Assembly (NCBI GenBank): GCA_963744145.1
Contig: CAVUSO010000001.1
Location: 1,934,831 to 1,998,830, forward strand
Reading direction: 5' to 3'
From: an uncultured cyanobacterium
Lineage (GTDB): Bacteria > Cyanobacteriota > Cyanobacteriia > Cyanobacteriales > CAWUOF01
DNA length: 64,000 nt
Shown here: positions 12,583 through 59,070 of the stretch, piece after piece
Numbering within the stretch: the stretch's first letter is position 1
How the letters are laid out: every line of letters begins with the position of its first letter
Program-made: the position numbers and the translations under genes
Notes under the pieces: model-generated
Databases searched by the model: none
Told to the model about the DNA's origin: nothing
What the model saw: only the letters and a program-made list of their open reading frames with translations

Positions 12583-12892
12583 TGAAGTACAGTAAGATTT
12601 GGCATGAATGGTGGGACAGGCATCTTGCCTGTCAGAGATTGTAAGTGATCTGTGTTGGTTGGGCAGGTTTATGATAGTTATCTGTTTGGAGCAGAATTGA
12701 TTGGTGAACCTGCCCCTACAAATCCTGTTAATCTTGTAATCCTCTCATCCTGATCGATTTTTTGGTAAATCCCTGTAGGGGCGGGTTCACCGATGAACTT
12801 GCCACACACAAATAACCCTTGTGCCGAGCGCAGTCGAGGTATTAATGAACCCGCCCTGCCCCACAGATCACCTTGATGAACTTCATAAACCT
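12583..12892 (+). repeat. MITE-like dispersed repeat (GGTGAACCCGCCCCTAC core family), about 310 bp copy with nested inverted repeats
   Basis: Contains ggtgaacctgcccctacaaatcc ... ctgtaggggcgggttcacc and gatctgtgttggttgggcaggtttatgat ... aacccgccctgccccacagatcacc pairs. Direct copy at about 17895-18160, inverted partial copy at about 14014-14165. Confidence 0.7.
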
Positions 12893-14013: not shown

Positions 14014-14165
14014 CAGGATTTGTAGGGGCGGGTTCACCAATTAATTTTGTGACAAACCGATCACCATTATAAACCCGCCCAACCAACACAGATCAATCAC
14101 AATCGACTTTAACTGATCGGACAGGCAAGATGCCTGTCCCACAATCTTACTGTACTTCATCAATA
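14014..14165 (-). repeat. MITE-like dispersed repeat, partial inverted copy
   Basis: tgtaggggcgggttcacc ... aaacccgcccaaccaacacagatc ... gacaggcaagatgcctgtcccacaatcttactgtacttcatca is the reverse complement of the 12583-12650/12700 segments. Confidence 0.65.
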
Positions 14166-17894: not shown

Positions 17895-18160
17895 TGATGA
17901 AGTACAGTAAGATTTGGCGCTAATAGCGATAAGTTAAAGTCAATTGTGATTGATCTGTGTTGGTTGGGCGGGTTTATGATGTTGATCTATTTGTGTCAGA
18001 ATTAACTGGTGAACCCGCCCCTACAAATCCTGGTTTATTGTCCTCATAAATTCATCGACAATACATTTTTATGAGCTAGTAGGGGCGGGTTCACCGCTGA
18101 ATTTGCCACACACAAATAACTTTAATAAACCCGCCCAACCTCACAGATAACCTTGATGAA
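17895..18160 (+). repeat. MITE-like dispersed repeat (same family as 12583-12892)
   Basis: tgatgaagtacagtaagatttgg ... gatctgtgttggttgggcgggtttatgat ... ggtgaacccgcccctacaaatcctgg ... gtaggggcgggttcaccg ... aacccgcccaacctcacagataacc. Confidence 0.7.
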
Positions 18161-36888: not shown

Positions 36889-37116
36889 ATGTTGACTTTG
36901 CAAGAAATTATTAAGTCTATTGATAGTCTGTCTATAAACGATCAGCAATATTTATTTGAGTTTCTGCGTAAAAAGCAGGAACAGCCTAAAGCAAATAATT
37001 TCTGGGCGGGTTTACAAAAATTTAGACAGACAATTCAACGTGAGGGAATTGTTTTTACTGATGAAGATTTTGCGGATTTGCGCGATCGCAGTCCTGGGAG
37101 AGAAATCGATCTATGA
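36889..37116 (+). CDS. type II antitoxin (VapB-like, uncharacterised family)
   Basis: 75 aa ORF immediately upstream of a PIN-domain gene, with 4 nt overlap. Confidence 0.5.
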   Translation: MLTLQEIIKSIDSLSINDQQYLFEFLRKKQEQPKANNFWAGLQKFRQTIQREGIVFTDEDFADLRDRSPGREIDL

Positions 37117-37544
37117 GTTTGAAGTTTTTACTTGATACAAATATCCTCTCAGAACCATCACGTCCTATTCCTAATGCTAATGTTCTAGCCAAATTAGATA
37201 TTCATCAGTCAGAAATTGCTGTCGCTAGTGTGGTTGTGCATGAGCTTTTACATGGTTGCTTGCGTTTACCAGAGTCAAAAAGACGAGAAAATCTTTGGGA
37301 ATATATTAATGAATCAGTTTTAAATTTACCAATTCTAAGTTATGATCTACATACGGCGCAGTGGCACGCGAATGAAAGGGCGAGGTTATCGAAGATTGGT
37401 AAAACTCCTGCATTTGTGGATAGTCAGATTGCGAGTATTGCTTACAGTAATAATTTAATTTTAGTGACTAATAATGTGCCTGATTTTCAGTTTTTCGATA
37501 GTTTAAAGATTGAAAATTGGTTCGTTAGTGGTGAGGATGGCTAA
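37113..37544 (+). CDS. vapC: PIN-domain ribonuclease toxin VapC
   Basis: N-terminal LLDTNIL PIN signature. About 143 aa. Coupled to the upstream small ORF. Confidence 0.75.
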   Translation: MSLKFLLDTNILSEPSRPIPNANVLAKLDIHQSEIAVASVVVHELLHGCLRLPESKRRENLWEYINESVLNLPILSYDLHTAQWHANERARLSKIGKTPAFVDSQIASIAYSNNLILVTNNVPDFQFFDSLKIENWFVSGEDG

Positions 37545-37846: not shown

Positions 37847-38083
37847 ATGACTACAACAAAACCAGAATTATTTGACATCATAGAACTTCTTGTTAATTTA
37901 CCAGAAGATAATCAAGCAATCGGCGATAAAGGAACCATTGTTGAATGCTACGACAGCGATAATTTTGAGATTGAATTTATCAATAAAAACGGTAAAGCGA
38001 TCGCATTATGTACCCTATTTTCTCAACAATTTATAGTTGTCTGGAAAGCCAGCACCAAAACTCAATCTTGTCGCAGCTATTGA
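37847..38083 (+). CDS. DUF4926-like small protein
   Basis: Pattern LPE...GDKGTIVE......FEIEF....G..IAL.TL resembles the DUF4926 family. Confidence 0.4.
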   Translation: MTTTKPELFDIIELLVNLPEDNQAIGDKGTIVECYDSDNFEIEFINKNGKAIALCTLFSQQFIVVWKASTKTQSCRSY

Positions 38084-38165
38084 AAAACGCTTTACCCATC
38101 TAGGCGATTTTGAACTACCCGAAATCACTAGAAAATAATTGCATGAGTATCTAATAAAAACCTCA

Positions 38166-38381
38166 TTACTGTTTGCCATAGAACATAAAATTAATCTCCT
38201 CTGACTCATCGTCAAAATCATCAGCAATCCAAACGCGCCCTTCCCAAGCACCTGGAGTACGTGGCTCAAGTTTTCCCTGATCACTAAGCTCCAATGGTTG
38301 ATCAAAATCATCTGAACCACAATTTAAACCCATGATCGCCGCTTCCGAAAAAATTTCCCTTAAATCATACCAATTCACCAT
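38166..38381 (-). CDS. hypothetical small acidic protein
   Basis: ORF starting at the internal Met (MVNWYDLREIF...). The annotated longer N-terminus lies inside a repeat copy. Acidic C-terminal half. Confidence 0.3.
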   Translation of the reverse strand: MVNWYDLREIFSEAAIMGLNCGSDDFDQPLELSDQGKLEPRTPGAWEGRVWIADDFDDESEEINFMFYGKQ

Positions 38382-38557
38382 GAAGATACATTGATGTATA
38401 TTGATCTGTGGGTGAGGGTGGGTTTTGATGATTAGTAGGTAAATGTCAAACATCTCGGTGAACCCGGGCGGGTTTTTCTAATTAATTGGTAAATTTCAAA
38501 AATCTGGGCGAACCCGCCCCTACTACAGAAATCCGCAAATTGAGGATAAAATTGGTA
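38368..38557 (+). repeat. left half of a MITE-like element split by IS insertion
   Basis: Identical to 58765-58957 (...gaggataaaattggtag). Continues at 40288 after the IS. Confidence 0.75.
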
Positions 38558-40290
38558 GATACTGTCTTGATTTGTCAAGGGGTAGCGATCGCCAAATTGC
38601 CTAATTAGGGTCAAAGAGTTTAGCAGATTTGAAAATCGCCAAAATATGGTTAGGGATTTTACCATTAAAGCACTAATCTCCTGGATTTTTACCTGACCCA
38701 CGCAGCCATCATCTCTCACTCATTAATGGGAGTAATGAGTGGTGAAGCATCGTGACTGTGGGCAGAAAGGCGAGCATTTTTGGCACTGGAAACCCGACGG
38801 ATTGACCCTAACTATAGAGCCACCGTTTGTTCACCCATACTGGGAATAGAAGTCAACCAGTTCCGTAGTTGTTTAAGCGAGATCCTCTCGATGCACAGTC
38901 GTCAGTTTCGTCTGTTCATCTTGGTTGAGGGATGAACATGTTCTGGTGGCGAGATTTCGCCCGCCAGATCCCATCTAGACGGGTAAAGGGGTAGCGCTCG
39001 CATAATTGGGGTCAAAAGGTGTTTGGGATTTTAAAATCCCAAACGCCAAATGTAGGAGTTTTCGCATCAGGGCTCCAACCACCTGCATTTTCACCTTGCC
39101 ACGCTCCAATAATCGCTCACTCATTGCCTTGAGTAATGGGTTATGACTCATCGCTACTACGGCGGGCATATAAGCGCGCTTTTCGCAGTCGAGTATTGCC
39201 TATACAAGACAAGCGAGTTTTACCATGAACTGAAGTTCCTGAACTCCGCTCGCAGGGATTTAACCCAACATAAGCAACTAATTGGCGGGCATTTTTATAA
39301 TCGGTAATCCGACCAATTTCAGCTAACAATACAGCCGCAGTTTGTTCGCCAATTCCCGGAATTGAAGTCAACAGCTCACGTTGTTTTTTCAAATGGGGAT
39401 GTTGGTCAAAATGGTCGCGAATTAATTGTTTGATCTCAGCTTGTTGTTGGGCGAGATATTCTAGATGCTTTCTCGTTATCAGCGCGACAGATTCGCTCTC
39501 GGTTTCGAGCCGATTCTGCTCCTGTTGCGCGATTTCGATGAAGGATTCTAGTCGTCTGAGTAGGGCTTGTAATTCCTTAACTTCCGGTGCTGTTGGTTTC
39601 CAAAATGACGGCTTCATCGCCACACAAAAACGCGCAATTAAGCCTGCATCTACCGCGTCGGTTTTCGTTCGCAGGAGTTCACTTTTGGCAAATCCTTTGA
39701 TCCGCGCTGGATTAACGATACTTACCTGATAACCAGCCTGGTAGAGGAATTCAGCTAATGCTTCCCCATAAATACTGGTCGCTTCTAAGCAAGCATGAAG
39801 TTCTACCACACCTTGACATTTGAGCCATTGTGCTAAACTTTCAAACCCTTCTAGATCATTAGTAAACTTTTTTGGTTTTGGCTTTTTCCCACAGTCCAGT
39901 TTCAATAAAACGACATGAAAGTCTTTTTTACTGATGTCTATTCCTAAGACTGTAGATGTCATAAGTTTCTCCTGATGTCGAGTTGATGGGTGAGAACTTG
40001 ACAGACATTAAACTAACCTTGTTAATACAGGCTATCTCGTGACCACGAGTGCCTTAGATACTGTCGAGTTTTCTGTGCGTCTGTCATCAGCGACTGGGAG
40101 CTTATCTACAAAACAGACTTATGAGGTCTGAGGGGCGGGCCAACTTCACCACTTGCTGATGTTCTTCAGCACACTTTCTCATCTCTACTGAGCTGAGGTC
40201 GAAAACTTTTCTAGTTTCTTTAGATTTCTCACTAATCCTTGATGTACCTGCATCTTGGTAGTCCAATTATCTGTATCCTTTAAAGATACA
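38558..40290 (-). mobile_element. IS110-family insertion sequence (about 1.7 kb) inserted into a MITE-like repeat copy; carries a partially duplicated 3' segment
   Basis: Transposase gene on the minus strand. Insertion point defined by comparison with the uninterrupted repeat at 58765-59070 (ggtag|gggcagg). 38560-38960 resembles the transposase 3' end (GQVKIQEISALMVKSL... versus GKVKMQVVGALMRKLL...). Confidence 0.7.
38975..39962 (-). pseudogene. IS110-family transposase, frameshifted (273 aa N-terminal ORF plus 64 aa C-terminal ORF)
   Basis: N-terminal DEDD_Tnp_IS110 (LGIDISKKDFHVVLL). Transposase_20 (IPGIGEQTAAVLLAEIG). C-terminal LLERGKVKMQVVGALMRKLLHLAFGILK in a different frame. Frameshift in the gcgcgc run near 39150. 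Confidence 0.75.
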
Positions 40291-40410
40291 AGGGGCAGGT
40301 TCACCAGTCAATTTTGCTACCAACAGATCACCATTATAAACCTGCCCTGACTTAACAGATCAACCTCAGATTAAGTGCAATTTCATAGTTAATTGGTATC
40401 AGCACCACCA
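40288..40410 (+). repeat. right half of the MITE-like element split by the IS
   Basis: gggcaggttcaccagtcaatttt...caacagatcaccattataaacctgccctg...tcaacctcagattaagtgcaatttcatagttaattggtatca matches 58958-59066. Confidence 0.75.
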
Positions 40411-40419
40411 AAGTTCAGA

Positions 40420-41214
40420 TTATAAATTTTTATCCCATTCTAACTGATGACTTAAACCATATTTAATAAATTCTTCTGGGGTCACTCGATCATTTTTACC
40501 AAACACCCCTAAACTATAAGGATTTTCTTGCATTCTTTCTCTGACTAATTCCTGTTCAAATTGTTTCACTTCGGCTCTAGGTTGATCAGGTTTAAAGAAA
40601 TCTACAACTAAAACAGTTCTGTCATAGTTGGTGTAATTATGAGGACAATGGGGGTAGCTATGATCTAAAACTAAAAATTCGCCTTCATGCCAATAAAATT
40701 TGTCATGGCATATTTTCATTGCCACATCTCCAACCGGAACAATCAATCCTAAATAACCGCGATTCATGTGGGGATTATAGTTAACATGAAGTTTAACATC
40801 TAATCCGGGATGAAATGTGCCAAAATAGACATTTCTGAGAATATGATCATTGATAGAGTTGGTTTGAGCGATCGCCTGACTTAACTGAGGAAAGTATCTT
40901 TCTCGTAATTCCAGTGCTGTTTGCTGGACATCCTGCGACTCATATTGCGGATATTGAATTTGATGGACTTGAATATATTCTTCAATAAATATTCCTTGAA
41001 ATAATACCCCAAAAGCGCTATATTTAGCGTTACCTTTAGTTTTAATCGTTTTATTTTTCGGTCCCATGACATCAATACTAAACTGTAACTCTTCCTGAGA
41101 AGCTTGATTTTTAAAGTGAGTAAATTCATCTCTAATCGCTTCCCAGTTTTCTTGGAGATTGTTTAGAAAAGTAAATTGTTTGGGGTCTAAATTGTACTCG
41201 GTAAAATTTGCCAT
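40420..41214 (-). CDS. aspartyl/asparaginyl beta-hydroxylase-family (AspH/LpxO-like) 2OG-Fe(II) oxygenase domain protein
   Basis: Conserved His-rich core (HPGLDVKLHVNYNPHMNRGYLGLIVPVGD...WHEGEFLVLDHSYPHCPHN) resembles the Asp_Arg_Hydrox domain. Confidence 0.45.
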   Translation of the reverse strand: MANFTEYNLDPKQFTFLNNLQENWEAIRDEFTHFKNQASQEELQFSIDVMGPKNKTIKTKGNAKYSAFGVLFQGIFIEEYIQVHQIQYPQYESQDVQQTALELRERYFPQLSQAIAQTNSINDHILRNVYFGTFHPGLDVKLHVNYNPHMNRGYLGLIVPVGDVAMKICHDKFYWHEGEFLVLDHSYPHCPHNYTNYDRTVLVVDFFKPDQPRAEVKQFEQELVRERMQENPYSLGVFGKNDRVTPEEFIKYGLSHQLEWDKNL

Positions 41215-58611: not shown

Positions 58612-58764
58612 TTCATAACACCAATAACCATCGGACGGTTGAGATTTTTTCGGTTCTTCACAAAATAATTATAGGAAAGCTAGTTCATCAAATCCACCTT
58701 GCAGATTGATTTTTGTCATTTTTTTACCTAAGATATCAGGTCATTTTCCATATATTATAGCACT

Positions 58765-59070
58765 GATACCAATTCACCATGAAGATACATTGATGTATAT
58801 TGATCTGTGGGTGAGGGTGGGTTTTGATGATTAGTAGGTAAATGTCAAACATCTCGGTGAACCCGGGCGGGTTTTTCTAATTAATTGGTAAATTTCAAAA
58901 ATCTGGGCGAACCCGCCCCTACTACAGAAATCCGCAAATTGAGGATAAAATTGGTAGGGGCAGGTTCACCAGTCAATTTTACCACCAACAGATCACCATT
59001 ATAAACCTGCCCTGGCCTAACAGATCAACCTCAGATTAAGTGCAATTTCATAGTTAATTGGTATCACCTC
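58765..59070 (+). repeat. intact about 300 bp MITE-like element (reference copy; equals 38368-38557 plus 40288-40410 joined)
   Basis: Continuous identity to both flanks of the IS110 insertion. Confidence 0.8.

What the first reader, a model, noticed from the sequence alone, without database searches (positions are those of the whole stretch)
38558..40290. IS110-family element caught inserted into a MITE copy, with an intact reference copy 19 kb away
The sequence ...gaggataaaattggtag|gggcaggttcaccagtc... is continuous at 58950-58970. At 38557/40288 it is separated by about 1.73 kb. That insert holds an IS110-type transposase (DEDD N-terminus, transposase_20 C-terminus) that is frameshifted in a GC dinucleotide run. 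It also holds a diverged duplicate of the transposase 3' end at 38560-38960. This gives an exact insertion site for an IS110-family element, a family without inverted repeats that is often site-specific. The target is a stem of the repeat hairpin.
Basis: seen in the sequence. Interest (0 to 1): 0.55.

Follow-up and report, generated by a model that had tools for sequence, protein, structure and literature searches.

The report
Bridge-RNA insertion sequence inside a repeat
A 1.7-kb IS110-family (IS621-like) mobile element that finds its landing site with its own guide RNA sits in a hairpin of a small cyanobacterial repeat, and an empty copy of that repeat 18 kb away shows the exact junction. 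This is a clean but ordinary example of a known kind of element.

Summary
A 301-303-bp MITE-like repeat is intact at 58764-59066. In its other copy it is split by exactly 1732 bp (38559-40290, minus strand). The dinucleotide AG (CT in element orientation) is single in the empty copy and flanks the insert on both sides.

The insert is an IS110-group element related to E. coli IS621: about 43% protein identity, E 4.6e-74, with D9, E60, D102, D105 and S241 conserved. Its 328-nt left end encodes a two-loop bridge RNA. The target guide matches the repeat 8/9 plus CTAC. The donor guide matches the element's outer right end 9/9.

Across 47 relatives from Microcoleus, Tychonema and Chamaesiphon, most resolved targets are the 3' arm of a GGGGCGGGTT-N~37-AACCCGCCCCT hairpin. 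Guide and target change together in Chamaesiphon.

This copy's transposase is frameshifted. Intact 328-aa copies exist in the same 7.63-Mb genome.

The "diverged duplicate" is a decayed partial module. The right end next to the gene is dead, and the duplicate supplies the only guide-matching right end, so the 1.73-kb composite is probably the mobile unit. Partial duplications of this kind were described in a 2026 preprint.

This is a new member of a known kind, of modest interest.

The parts
38559..40290 (-). Whole insert: IS110-group (IS621-like) element, 1732 bp, no terminal inverted repeats
   Evidence: The ends compared as inverted repeats give 13/40 matches, which is chance level.
38557..38558 (.). 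Core dinucleotide AG (CT in element orientation) at the right-end junction
   Evidence: the 2-nt overlap of the two flank alignments. It is single in the intact copy at 58956-58957.
40291..40292 (.). Core dinucleotide AG (CT in element orientation) at the left-end junction
38367..38558 (+). Left part of the interrupted MITE-like repeat (right-target side of the element)
   Evidence: 192/192 identical to 58766-58957.
40291..40401 (+). Right part of the interrupted MITE-like repeat (left-target side of the element)
   Evidence: 107/111 identical to 58956-59066.
58764..59066 (+). Intact copy of the MITE-like repeat: 20-nt terminal inverted repeats (18/20), strongly self-folding
   Evidence: z = -4.6; I2.
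58954..58964 (-). Empty target site CCTGCCC-CT-AC in the intact repeat
39963..40290 (-). Non-coding left end (328 nt) upstream of the recombinase gene
40000..40163 (-). Predicted bridge RNA: a target-binding domain followed by a donor-binding domain
   Evidence: Alignment A1 of 16 relatives. Consensus fold. 92% of cells paired, 5 pairs with compensatory changes, 0/500 shuffles reach this, slid controls 25-40%. Coordinates.
40131..40139 (-). Left target guide CCCGCCCCU
   Evidence: Matches left target plus core CCTGCCCCT 8/9 here. It matches 9/9 in most of the Microcoleus-type elements where it could be read.
40104..40109 (-). Right target guide GUAG plus handshake AU
   Evidence: It is the complement of AT|CT|AC, the right-end junction. 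It is invariant in all 16 aligned sequences. Every relative's right flank starts CTAC.
40056..40064 (-). Left donor guide ACAGUAUCU
   Evidence: 9/9 to the outer right end ACAGTAT plus CT at 38557-38565. Only 4/7 plus CT to the inner right end.
40017..40028 (-). Right donor guide region GUAUUAACAAGG
   Evidence: AU..ACAAG is the discontiguous complement of CT+TGTAT (left-end start). This is the 9-on-7 pattern reported for IS621. The assignment is by inspection.
39141..39962 (-). Recombinase ORF, N-terminal 273 codons up to the frameshift-induced stop
   Evidence: D9, E60, D102, D105 and S241 align with the IS621 catalytic residues.
38975..39169 (-). Recombinase C-terminal part in the shifted frame (…MPAVVAMSHNP…ATPLPV*)
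   Evidence: The intact 328-aa paralogue P0001 reads straight through.
39174..39179 (.). GCGCGC run at or next to the net +1 frameshift
   Evidence: A single-base deletion does not restore P0001's ..KALYM.., so more than one change separates the copies.
38966..38987 (-). Degenerate inner right end (TTTACCCGTCTAGATGGGAT-CT) directly after the gene
   Evidence: 13/22 to the family consensus. The -35-like TTGACA has become TTTACC. The stop TGA has become TTA, which adds the residues LPV.
38559..38965 (-). Relic: a decayed partial module homologous to element positions about 829-1325
   Evidence: It has several stops and a deletion of about 115 nt.
38559..38578 (-). Outer, intact right end TTGACAAATCAAGACAGTAT
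   Evidence: 97% identical to the relatives' ends over 34 nt. All positions invariant among the relatives are kept.
39463..39470 (-). Internal sequence AAGCATCT that resembles the left donor
   Evidence: Homology of the relic begins immediately downstream of it. This is an inference about how the duplication arose.
40339..40347 (+). Hairpin partner arm AACCTGCCC, pairing with the target arm GGGCAGGTT at 40293-40301
   Evidence: (I9, 37 nt between the arms).
38513..38523 (+). Perfect, unoccupied target CCCGCCCCTAC in the same repeat, in opposite orientation
   Evidence: Its own partner arm lies 36 nt upstream (I7).

Best explanation
The insert is an IS110-group, IS621-like "bridge recombinase" insertion sequence on the minus strand.

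By analogy with IS621, the element excises as a circle. Joining the right and left ends creates a promoter, TTGACA-18 nt-TATCTT. Transcription of the left end gives a bridge RNA of about 165 nt with two internal loops.
- The donor loop (ACAGUAUCU and AU..ACAAG) pairs with the element's own joined ends, ACAGTAT-CT-TGTAT.
- The target loop (CCCGCCCCU and GUAG, plus handshake AU) pairs with AACC(C/T)GCCC-CT-AC. This sequence is the 3' arm of a GC-rich hairpin repeated through this cyanobacterial genome.
- The DEDD/Ser recombinase exchanges strands at the CT core, which ends up on both sides of the insert.

Here the element landed in a one-mismatch version of the target inside a 303-bp MITE-like repeat.

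This copy can no longer make full-length recombinase because of a net +1 frameshift. Its RNA and both ends are intact, so intact paralogues in the genome could still move it.

Its 3' part carries a decayed partial duplicate of the module. The right end next to the gene has died, and the duplicate's right end is the one the donor guide recognises. The 1732-bp composite is therefore most likely the mobile unit.

Shown: anatomy, homology, guide/target and guide/end complementarity, RNA covariation, and the empty site. Inferred: the circle, the promoter's use, mobilisation in trans, and that the composite is what moves.
For: Filled and empty site with a 2-bp core duplication.

Protein: Pfam DEDD_Tnp_IS110 and Transposase_20. 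Full-length match to the IS621 recombinase 8wt6, E 4.6e-74, about 43% identity, with the catalytic D, E, D, D and S aligned.

Ends: in 47 related loci every right end reads ...CCCCTTGACAGNTCAAGACAGTAT|CTAC. Nearly every resolved left junction reads AACCCGCCCCT|TGTATC.

RNA: the left-end RNA is conserved. Its structure has 92% of cells paired, 5 compensated pairs, and 0/500 shuffles reaching this; slid controls give 25-40%.

Guides: the target guide matches the target 9/9 in most elements where both could be read. It co-varies in Chamaesiphon (guide AUUGCCCCU, target ATTGCCCCT). The donor guide matches 9/9.

Target: the hairpin geometry is conserved in most relatives and in the window. The motif occurs 9 times against 0.2 expected.

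Composite unit: the inner right end is 13/22 to consensus and 4/7 to the donor guide. The outer right end keeps all invariant positions although the rest of the relic is only about 55-70% identical. The ...ATPLPV tail, which requires the mutated inner end, is shared by two intact paralogues that differ by about 7% in the same genome.
Against: No RNA, circle-junction or activity data exist for this element.

The DNA of the other genomic copies could not be retrieved. It has therefore not been seen directly that those copies carry the relic.

The target guide has one mismatch to the occupied site, while perfect sites, including one 35 nt away in the same repeat, are empty.

Rfam has no matching family.

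The single-sequence fold is only weakly better than shuffles (z = -1.85).

The structure tested was partly derived from the same sequences.
Confidence: 0.85

Rival explanations
1. There were two separate events at one site. An older IS110 element inserted in this hairpin and decayed. A younger 1.3-kb element (40290 to about 38966) later replaced its 5' part, for example by half-match insertion at the old left junction followed by deletion. On this view the relic is a local fossil, and the mobile unit elsewhere in the genome is 1.3 kb.
For: The relic is no closer to this element's own gene than to the Microcoleus relatives, which fits a different lineage. Repeated insertion into occupied IS110 loci is reported. 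Logan contig L048, a 99.3% identical copy, ends within 1 nt of the inner right end.
Against: The inner right end does not match the donor guide (4/7) and has lost the TTGACA box. Its mutated stop is nevertheless shared by two intact paralogues about 7% apart, so the inner end was already degenerate while the family was still spreading. The outer end is perfectly conserved while the rest of the relic has decayed. The rival's deletion would need an endpoint exactly at the younger element's tip. L048 starts with a sequencing adapter, so its ends reflect low coverage rather than repeat boundaries.
Confidence: 0.2
2. The frameshift is programmed (recoding) rather than a defect, and this copy is autonomous.
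For: The same 273-aa product is found in a second sequencing data set.
Against: Intact in-frame 328-aa paralogues exist in the same genome. The relatives returned by the protein search are mostly single ORFs of 320-340 aa. No slippery heptamer is evident at 39170-39185. Programmed frameshifting is not known for IS110-family recombinases (my own knowledge).
Confidence: 0.03
3. This is not an insertion. The two repeat halves are independent partial repeats that happen to flank an IS, or the arrangement is an assembly chimera.
For: Partial copies of the repeat's modules do occur elsewhere in the window.
Against: The halves are 192/192 and 107/111 identical to one continuous 301-nt copy. They abut with exactly the 2-bp overlap expected of the family's CT core. 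The junction sequences are those predicted by the element's own guides. The window comes from a 7.63-Mb contig.
Confidence: 0.02

Closest known systems
IS621 of Escherichia coli (IS110 group; bridge RNA recombinase; PDB 8wt6; Durrant et al. 2024 PMC11208160, Hiraizumi et al. 2024 PMC11208158)
   Same: Full-length recombinase homology (E 4.6e-74, about 43% identity) with the same catalytic D, E, D, D and S. The RNA is encoded in the left end, upstream of the gene. It has two loops with a 9-nt left guide that includes the core, a 4-nt right guide GUAG, and a handshake AU. The core is CT. Donor positions 6-10 (ATCTT) are the same as published for IS621. The target starts ...CT-AC and lies in a repeated extragenic hairpin. 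[quoted passage not shown]
   Different: The host is a filamentous cyanobacterium, not an enterobacterium. The left target is CC(C/T)GCCC rather than ATCAGGC. The left end is longer (328 nt), with about 127 nt before the RNA. The element carries a decayed partial duplicate, and the functional right end is separated from the gene by about 400 nt.
ISPpu10 of Pseudomonas putida ("structure-gated" bridge recombinase; bioRxiv 10.64898/2026.03.19.712850)
   Same: The target lies at the 3' base of a genomic hairpin on the left-target side. Here that geometry is conserved across most resolved relatives. In the window, the guide mismatch in the target arm is compensated in the partner arm.
   Different: A requirement for the hairpin is not tested here. 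This recombinase was not compared with ISPpu10.
Expanded IS110 loci with tandem partial-module duplications (Hu et al., bioRxiv 10.64898/2026.08.14.744561)
   Same: A partial module is duplicated downstream of the recombinase gene. The outer boundary keeps a left-donor match. The duplication junction lies at a sequence resembling the left donor.
   Different: This is a very small expansion (about 400 nt) with no cargo. The duplicate is old and decayed, and the inner end has been lost, so the right-end function has moved to the duplicate.
IS1111 group / seekRNA elements (Siddiquee et al., bioRxiv 10.1101/2024.04.26.591405)
   Same: DEDD-type transposase and RNA-guided site choice.
   Different: In IS1111 the non-coding RNA lies downstream of the gene (my own knowledge), and there are subterminal inverted repeats (abstract). 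Here the RNA lies upstream and no inverted repeats are present.

Membership tests
IS110 family, IS110 group (IS621-like bridge recombinase elements) | N-terminal RuvC-like DEDD domain with the four acidic residues | tested here: met
   PF01548, 3e-26. D9, E60, D102 and D105 align with IS621 D11, E60, D102 and D105.
IS110 family, IS110 group (IS621-like bridge recombinase elements) | C-terminal Tnp domain with the catalytic serine | tested here: met
   PF02371, 2.2e-23. S241-G242 align with IS621 S241-G242. In this copy the last 60 or so residues are out of frame. The intact paralogue P0001 has the complete domain.
IS110 family, IS110 group (IS621-like bridge recombinase elements) | No terminal inverted repeats; a 2-bp core shared by donor and target flanks the insert | tested here: met
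   The ends give 13/40 as inverted repeats. CT lies on both sides and is single in the empty site.
IS110 family, IS110 group (IS621-like bridge recombinase elements) | Long non-coding left end upstream of the gene, encoding a structured RNA with two internal loops | tested here: met
   328-nt left end. The RNA is conserved in 16 aligned relatives, with 7 helices, 92% of cells paired, 5 compensated pairs, and 0/500 shuffles reaching this. Caveat: the structure was partly derived from the same sequences.
IS110 family, IS110 group (IS621-like bridge recombinase elements) | Target-loop guides complementary to the insertion site | tested here: met
   Left guide 8/9 here, and 9/9 in most relatives where it could be read. 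Right guide GUAG against CTAC in all. Guide and target change together in Chamaesiphon.
IS110 family, IS110 group (IS621-like bridge recombinase elements) | Donor-loop guides complementary to the joined right and left ends | tested here: met
   ACAGUAUCU against ACAGTAT+CT, 9/9, using the outer right end. AU..ACAAG against CT+TGTAT.
IS110 family, IS110 group (IS621-like bridge recombinase elements) | [quoted passage not shown] | tested here: inconclusive
   Joining the ends gives TTGACA-18 nt-TATCTT (read). The TTGACA is conserved in all relatives. This is a sequence match only, and its use is not testable here.
IS110 family, IS110 group (IS621-like bridge recombinase elements) | Circular intermediate and RNA-dependent recombination | not testable with these tools
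   Needs circle-junction PCR or long reads, RNA-seq, or in vitro recombination.
MITE (the repeat that was hit) | Short, non-coding, with terminal inverted repeats and several copies | tested here: met
   About 303 bp with 20-nt terminal inverted repeats, 18/20. Folding z = -4.6. Two full copies plus partial modules in 64 kb.
MITE (the repeat that was hit) | Target-site duplication flanking each copy | tested here: not met
   The flanks of the two copies (…aaatc / gcacc… and …cactg / cctca…) show no direct repeat. I therefore call it MITE-like only.

The most novel reading that the evidence does not exclude
The 1.73-kb composite, not a 1.3-kb core, has been the transposing unit for a long time. 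A partial tandem duplication of the 3' module was made by the recombinase acting on an internal sequence resembling the left donor (AAGCATCT, 39463-39470). The two copies then divided the work: the gene-proximal copy kept the coding sequence and lost its end, and the distal copy lost the coding sequence and kept the end. This would be a natural, minimal record of how bridge-RNA elements start to grow by half-site recombination. Separately, hairpin geometry, and not only guide pairing, may gate target choice, as the compensated mismatch in the occupied hairpin hints.
Probability: 0.3. Interest if true: 0.45.

Novelty: new member of a known kind. Interest (0 to 1): 0.3.

Why it matters
It gives a clean natural filled-site/empty-site pair for a bridge-RNA element in a cyanobacterium. 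Every guide can be read off against the DNA it recognises. It also shows that a whole clade of such elements in Microcoleus, Tychonema and Chamaesiphon homes to one family of genomic hairpins.

It is useful for annotation. The element should be drawn as 38559-40290 with its RNA, not as two transposase fragments.

It is also a small natural example of right-end hand-over after a partial duplication.

It does not change what is known about how these elements work.

Tried and rejected
Rfam (E up to 1) on 38000-41000 gave no family.

Retrieving other copies from the source genome failed.
- Exact-protein look-ups of the intact paralogues P0001 and P0122, and of two small ORFs inside the insert, found nothing.
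- Two metagenome scans, one with the exact 3' gene end and one with a degenerate pattern for ...PNYAxATPLPV*, were empty.
- The one genome-collection scan returned only relatives of 54-81% protein identity (most 70-80%, about 75% at the DNA level), not the source genome.

They gave only a 2.3-kb Logan contig that stops about 30 nt inside the repeat.

Logan contig L048 was considered as evidence for a 1.3-kb unit. I rejected it because it begins with a Nextera adapter.

A flank-derived promoter (TTGACT-17 nt-TATCTT across the left junction) was considered. It is not conserved in the relatives, and the scan found no more sites than chance.

The RNAalifold pairs that sequester the target guides (31-34/44-47 and 66-70/76-80) were set aside in favour of the AGAC/GUCU inner hairpin, which leaves the guides free.

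Programmed frameshifting was rejected because intact paralogues exist.

Full report
**Observation.**
I read both sites and aligned them.
- Window 38367-38558 is 192/192 identical to 58766-58957.
- Window 40291-40401 is 107/111 identical to 58956-59066.
- The two alignments overlap by the dinucleotide AG in the intact copy.

The repeat is therefore split by exactly 1732 bp (38559-40290), with AG on both sides.

The repeat itself is about 303 bp. It has 20-nt terminal inverted repeats (18/20) and folds far better than shuffles (z = -4.6). I found no target-site duplication around it, so I call it MITE-like.

The window is cyanobacterial. The HIP1 octamer GCGATCGC occurs 69 times against 0.33 expected. 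It belongs to a 7,634,710-bp contig.

**What the insert encodes.**
On the minus strand, a 273-codon ORF (39962 down to 39141) hits DEDD_Tnp_IS110 (3e-26) and Transposase_20 (2.2e-23). The remaining 60 or so codons continue in another frame down to 38975. The break is at or beside the GCGCGC run 39174-39179.

A 328-aa in-frame version (P0001) is identical to the repaired translation except for one residue that I guessed at the repair point. P0001 and a second version that differs by about 7% (P0122) are recorded from the same 7.63-Mb contig. This copy is therefore a defective member of a family with intact members. The same 273-aa product occurs in a Logan contig from another run, 99.3% identical at the DNA level.

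P0001 matches the solved IS621 recombinase over its full length (8wt6, E 4.6e-74, about 43% identity). D9, E60, D102, D105 and S241 align with the IS621 catalytic residues D11, E60, D102, D105 and S241 given in PMC11208158.

**Ends and relatives.**
A scan of one genome per species returned 47 loci in Microcoleus, Tychonema, Kamptonema and Chamaesiphon. Protein identity runs from 54 to 81%, mostly 70-80%, and DNA identity is about 75%.
- Every resolved right end reads ...CCCCTTGACAGNTCAAGACAGTAT, followed by CTAC and then unrelated flank.
- Nearly every resolved left junction reads ...AACCCGCCCCT|TGTATCTT....
- The window element has the same termini: TGTATC... at 40290 and ...GACAGTAT at 38559. 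Its flanks are CCTGCCC-CT and CT-ACCAAT.

The ends are not inverted repeats (13/40). The duplicated AG is the family's CT core seen from the other strand.

**Bridge RNA.**
The 328-nt left end holds a conserved segment (window 40000-40163, minus strand). I aligned it across 16 non-redundant relatives.

The consensus fold, refined by hand so that the guides stay unpaired, has two domains with seven helices. On the alignment:
- 92% of cells pair.
- Five pairs show changes on both sides. For example, the outer stem of the donor domain is GACAGAC/GUCUGUC here, GACAGGC/GCCUGUC in Microcoleus, and GAUAGAC/GUCUAUC in L011.
- 0 of 500 shuffles reach the observed values. Slid controls pair only 25-40%.

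Using the definitions in PMC11208160, the guides are:
- Left target guide CCCGCCCCU (40131-40139). It equals left target plus core in most Microcoleus-type elements where it could be read, and it matches the window's CCTGCCCCT at 8/9.
- Right target guide GUAG followed by AU (40104-40109). It is invariant and complementary to the AT|CT|AC right junction.
- Left donor guide ACAGUAUCU (40056-40064). It matches the outer right end plus core 9/9.
- Right donor guide AU(UA)ACAAG. It is complementary to CT+TGTAT in the discontiguous 9-on-7 manner described for IS621.

In the Chamaesiphon copies the target is ATTGCCC-CT and the guide is AUUGCCCCU. Guide and target therefore changed together.

Rfam has no matching family. 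The single-sequence fold is unremarkable (z = -1.85). The case rests on conservation, covariation and the guide matches.

**The target is a hairpin.**
In most of the roughly 24 distinct left flanks, the insertion point is the last base of the 3' arm of GGGGCGGGTT-N(about 37)-AACCCGCCCCT. In most Chamaesiphon copies it is a tight palindrome, AGGGGCAATTCATGAATTGCCCCT.

The window has the same geometry: GGGCAGGTT...37 nt...AACCTGCCC (40293-40301 with 40339-40347, I9). The T that mismatches the guide is compensated by an A in the partner arm.

The 11-mer target with at most one mismatch occurs 9 times in the window against 0.2 expected. Six of these are perfect and unoccupied. One is at 38513-38523 in the same repeat, with its own partner arm (I7).

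A hairpin on the left-target side as a second requirement has been reported for ISPpu10. Here it is only a correlation.

**The "diverged duplicate".**
Element positions 1326-1732 (window 38965-38559) are homologous to positions about 829-1325 of the same element. The duplicate has a deletion of about 115 nt, several stops, and 68-73% identity in alignable blocks. It is no closer to its own gene than to the Microcoleus relatives.

Two details matter.

First, the sequence directly after the gene, TTTACCCGTCTAGATGGGAT-CT (38987-38966), is a degenerate right end.
- It is 13/22 to the consensus.
- TTGACA has become TTTACC.
- The family's TGA stop has become TTA, which adds LPV.
- Only 4/7 of the left-donor positions match the guide.
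- The ...ATPLPV tail is shared by P0001 and P0122, so this decay predates their divergence.

Second, the relic's terminal roughly 30 nt keep every position that is invariant among the relatives (34-nt BLAST blocks at 97%), while the rest of the relic has decayed.

The only right end that the element's own donor guide can recognise is therefore the outer one. Together with the seamless CT-AC junction at 38558/38559, this makes the 1732-bp composite the likely mobile unit.

Homology of the relic starts immediately after an internal AAGCATCT (39463-39470) that resembles the left donor AGTATCT. This fits the report that partial tandem duplications in IS110 loci have boundaries matching only the left donor. 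It remains an inference.

The alternative is an older element at the same site that was partly overwritten by a younger one. It cannot be excluded without the other genomic copies, which I could not retrieve.

**Mechanism (inferred from IS621).**
- The element excises to a circle. This joins ...TTGACAAATCAAGACAGTAT-CT-TGTATCTT..., which gives TTGACA-18 nt-TATCTT as a junction promoter.
- The bridge RNA is transcribed.
- The donor loop holds the joined ends, and the target loop holds AACC(C/T)GCCC-CT-AC at the foot of a hairpin.
- The recombinase exchanges strands at CT.

This copy would need recombinase from an intact paralogue.

**Comparison and verdict.**
Every defining feature of an IS110-group, IS621-like element that can be tested by sequence is met. 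Activity is untested. The target type (a repeated extragenic hairpin), the CT core, the CTAC right target and the ATCTT donor centre are the same as for IS621.

The host, the left target, the longer left end and the right-end hand-over to a decayed duplicate are the differences. The last of these falls within the "expanded loci" described in 2026.

The finding is a well-resolved new member of a known kind. Interest is 0.3.

Noticed in passing
window 38513-38523 (+); also 12775-12785, 14022-14032, 18014-18024, 18079-18089, 58912-58922: Six perfect 11-nt targets (CCCGCCCCTAC) are unoccupied, one of them 35 nt from the occupied one-mismatch site in the same repeat. The motif occurs 9 times in 64 kb against 0.2 expected.
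   Followed up: partly
window 40291-40401 versus 58956-59066, and 38367-38558 versus 58766-58957: The two repeat copies differ at 4 of 111 positions on one side of the insert and at 0 of 192 on the other. This asymmetry is unexplained. Possible causes are gene conversion or different ages of the halves.
   Followed up: no
L001, L002, L039 and others, left-end 5' part (between the tip and the bridge RNA): The relatives vary from 1335 to 1685 bp. Where I looked (L001, L002, L039), the 5' part of the left end holds tandem repeats of about 24 nt containing GCGATCG. This resembles the non-coding repeat accumulation reported for IS110 loci.
   Followed up: no
L019, L023, L025, L041 (bridge RNA donor loop): Four relatives carry GGCGGUAUCU instead of GACAGUAUCU in the left donor guide, although their right ends still read ACAGTAT. 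They may be defective copies or may pair in another way.
   Followed up: no
window 40283-40311 (-): The repeat flank supplies TTGACT 17 nt upstream of the left end's TATCTT. This forms a hybrid promoter-like site across the integrated left junction. It is not conserved in the relatives, and the scan is at chance level.
   Followed up: partly
window 40271-40290 (-): The left-end tip is itself a small palindrome, TGTATC-TTTAAAG-GATACA, which includes the right-donor bases. The Microcoleus relatives lack it.
   Followed up: no
L015, L016, L039: Some relatives have two copies of the element within 7 kb, in inverted orientation (L015, L016, L039).
   Followed up: no
window 37113-37544 (+): A 143-aa ORF just upstream (MSLKFLLDTNILSE...) looks like a PIN-domain toxin by eye. 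I ran no family search on it.
   Followed up: no
whole window: GCGATCGC (HIP1) occurs 69 times against 0.33 expected. This marks the window as cyanobacterial. One copy lies inside the relic at 38585-38592.
   Followed up: yes
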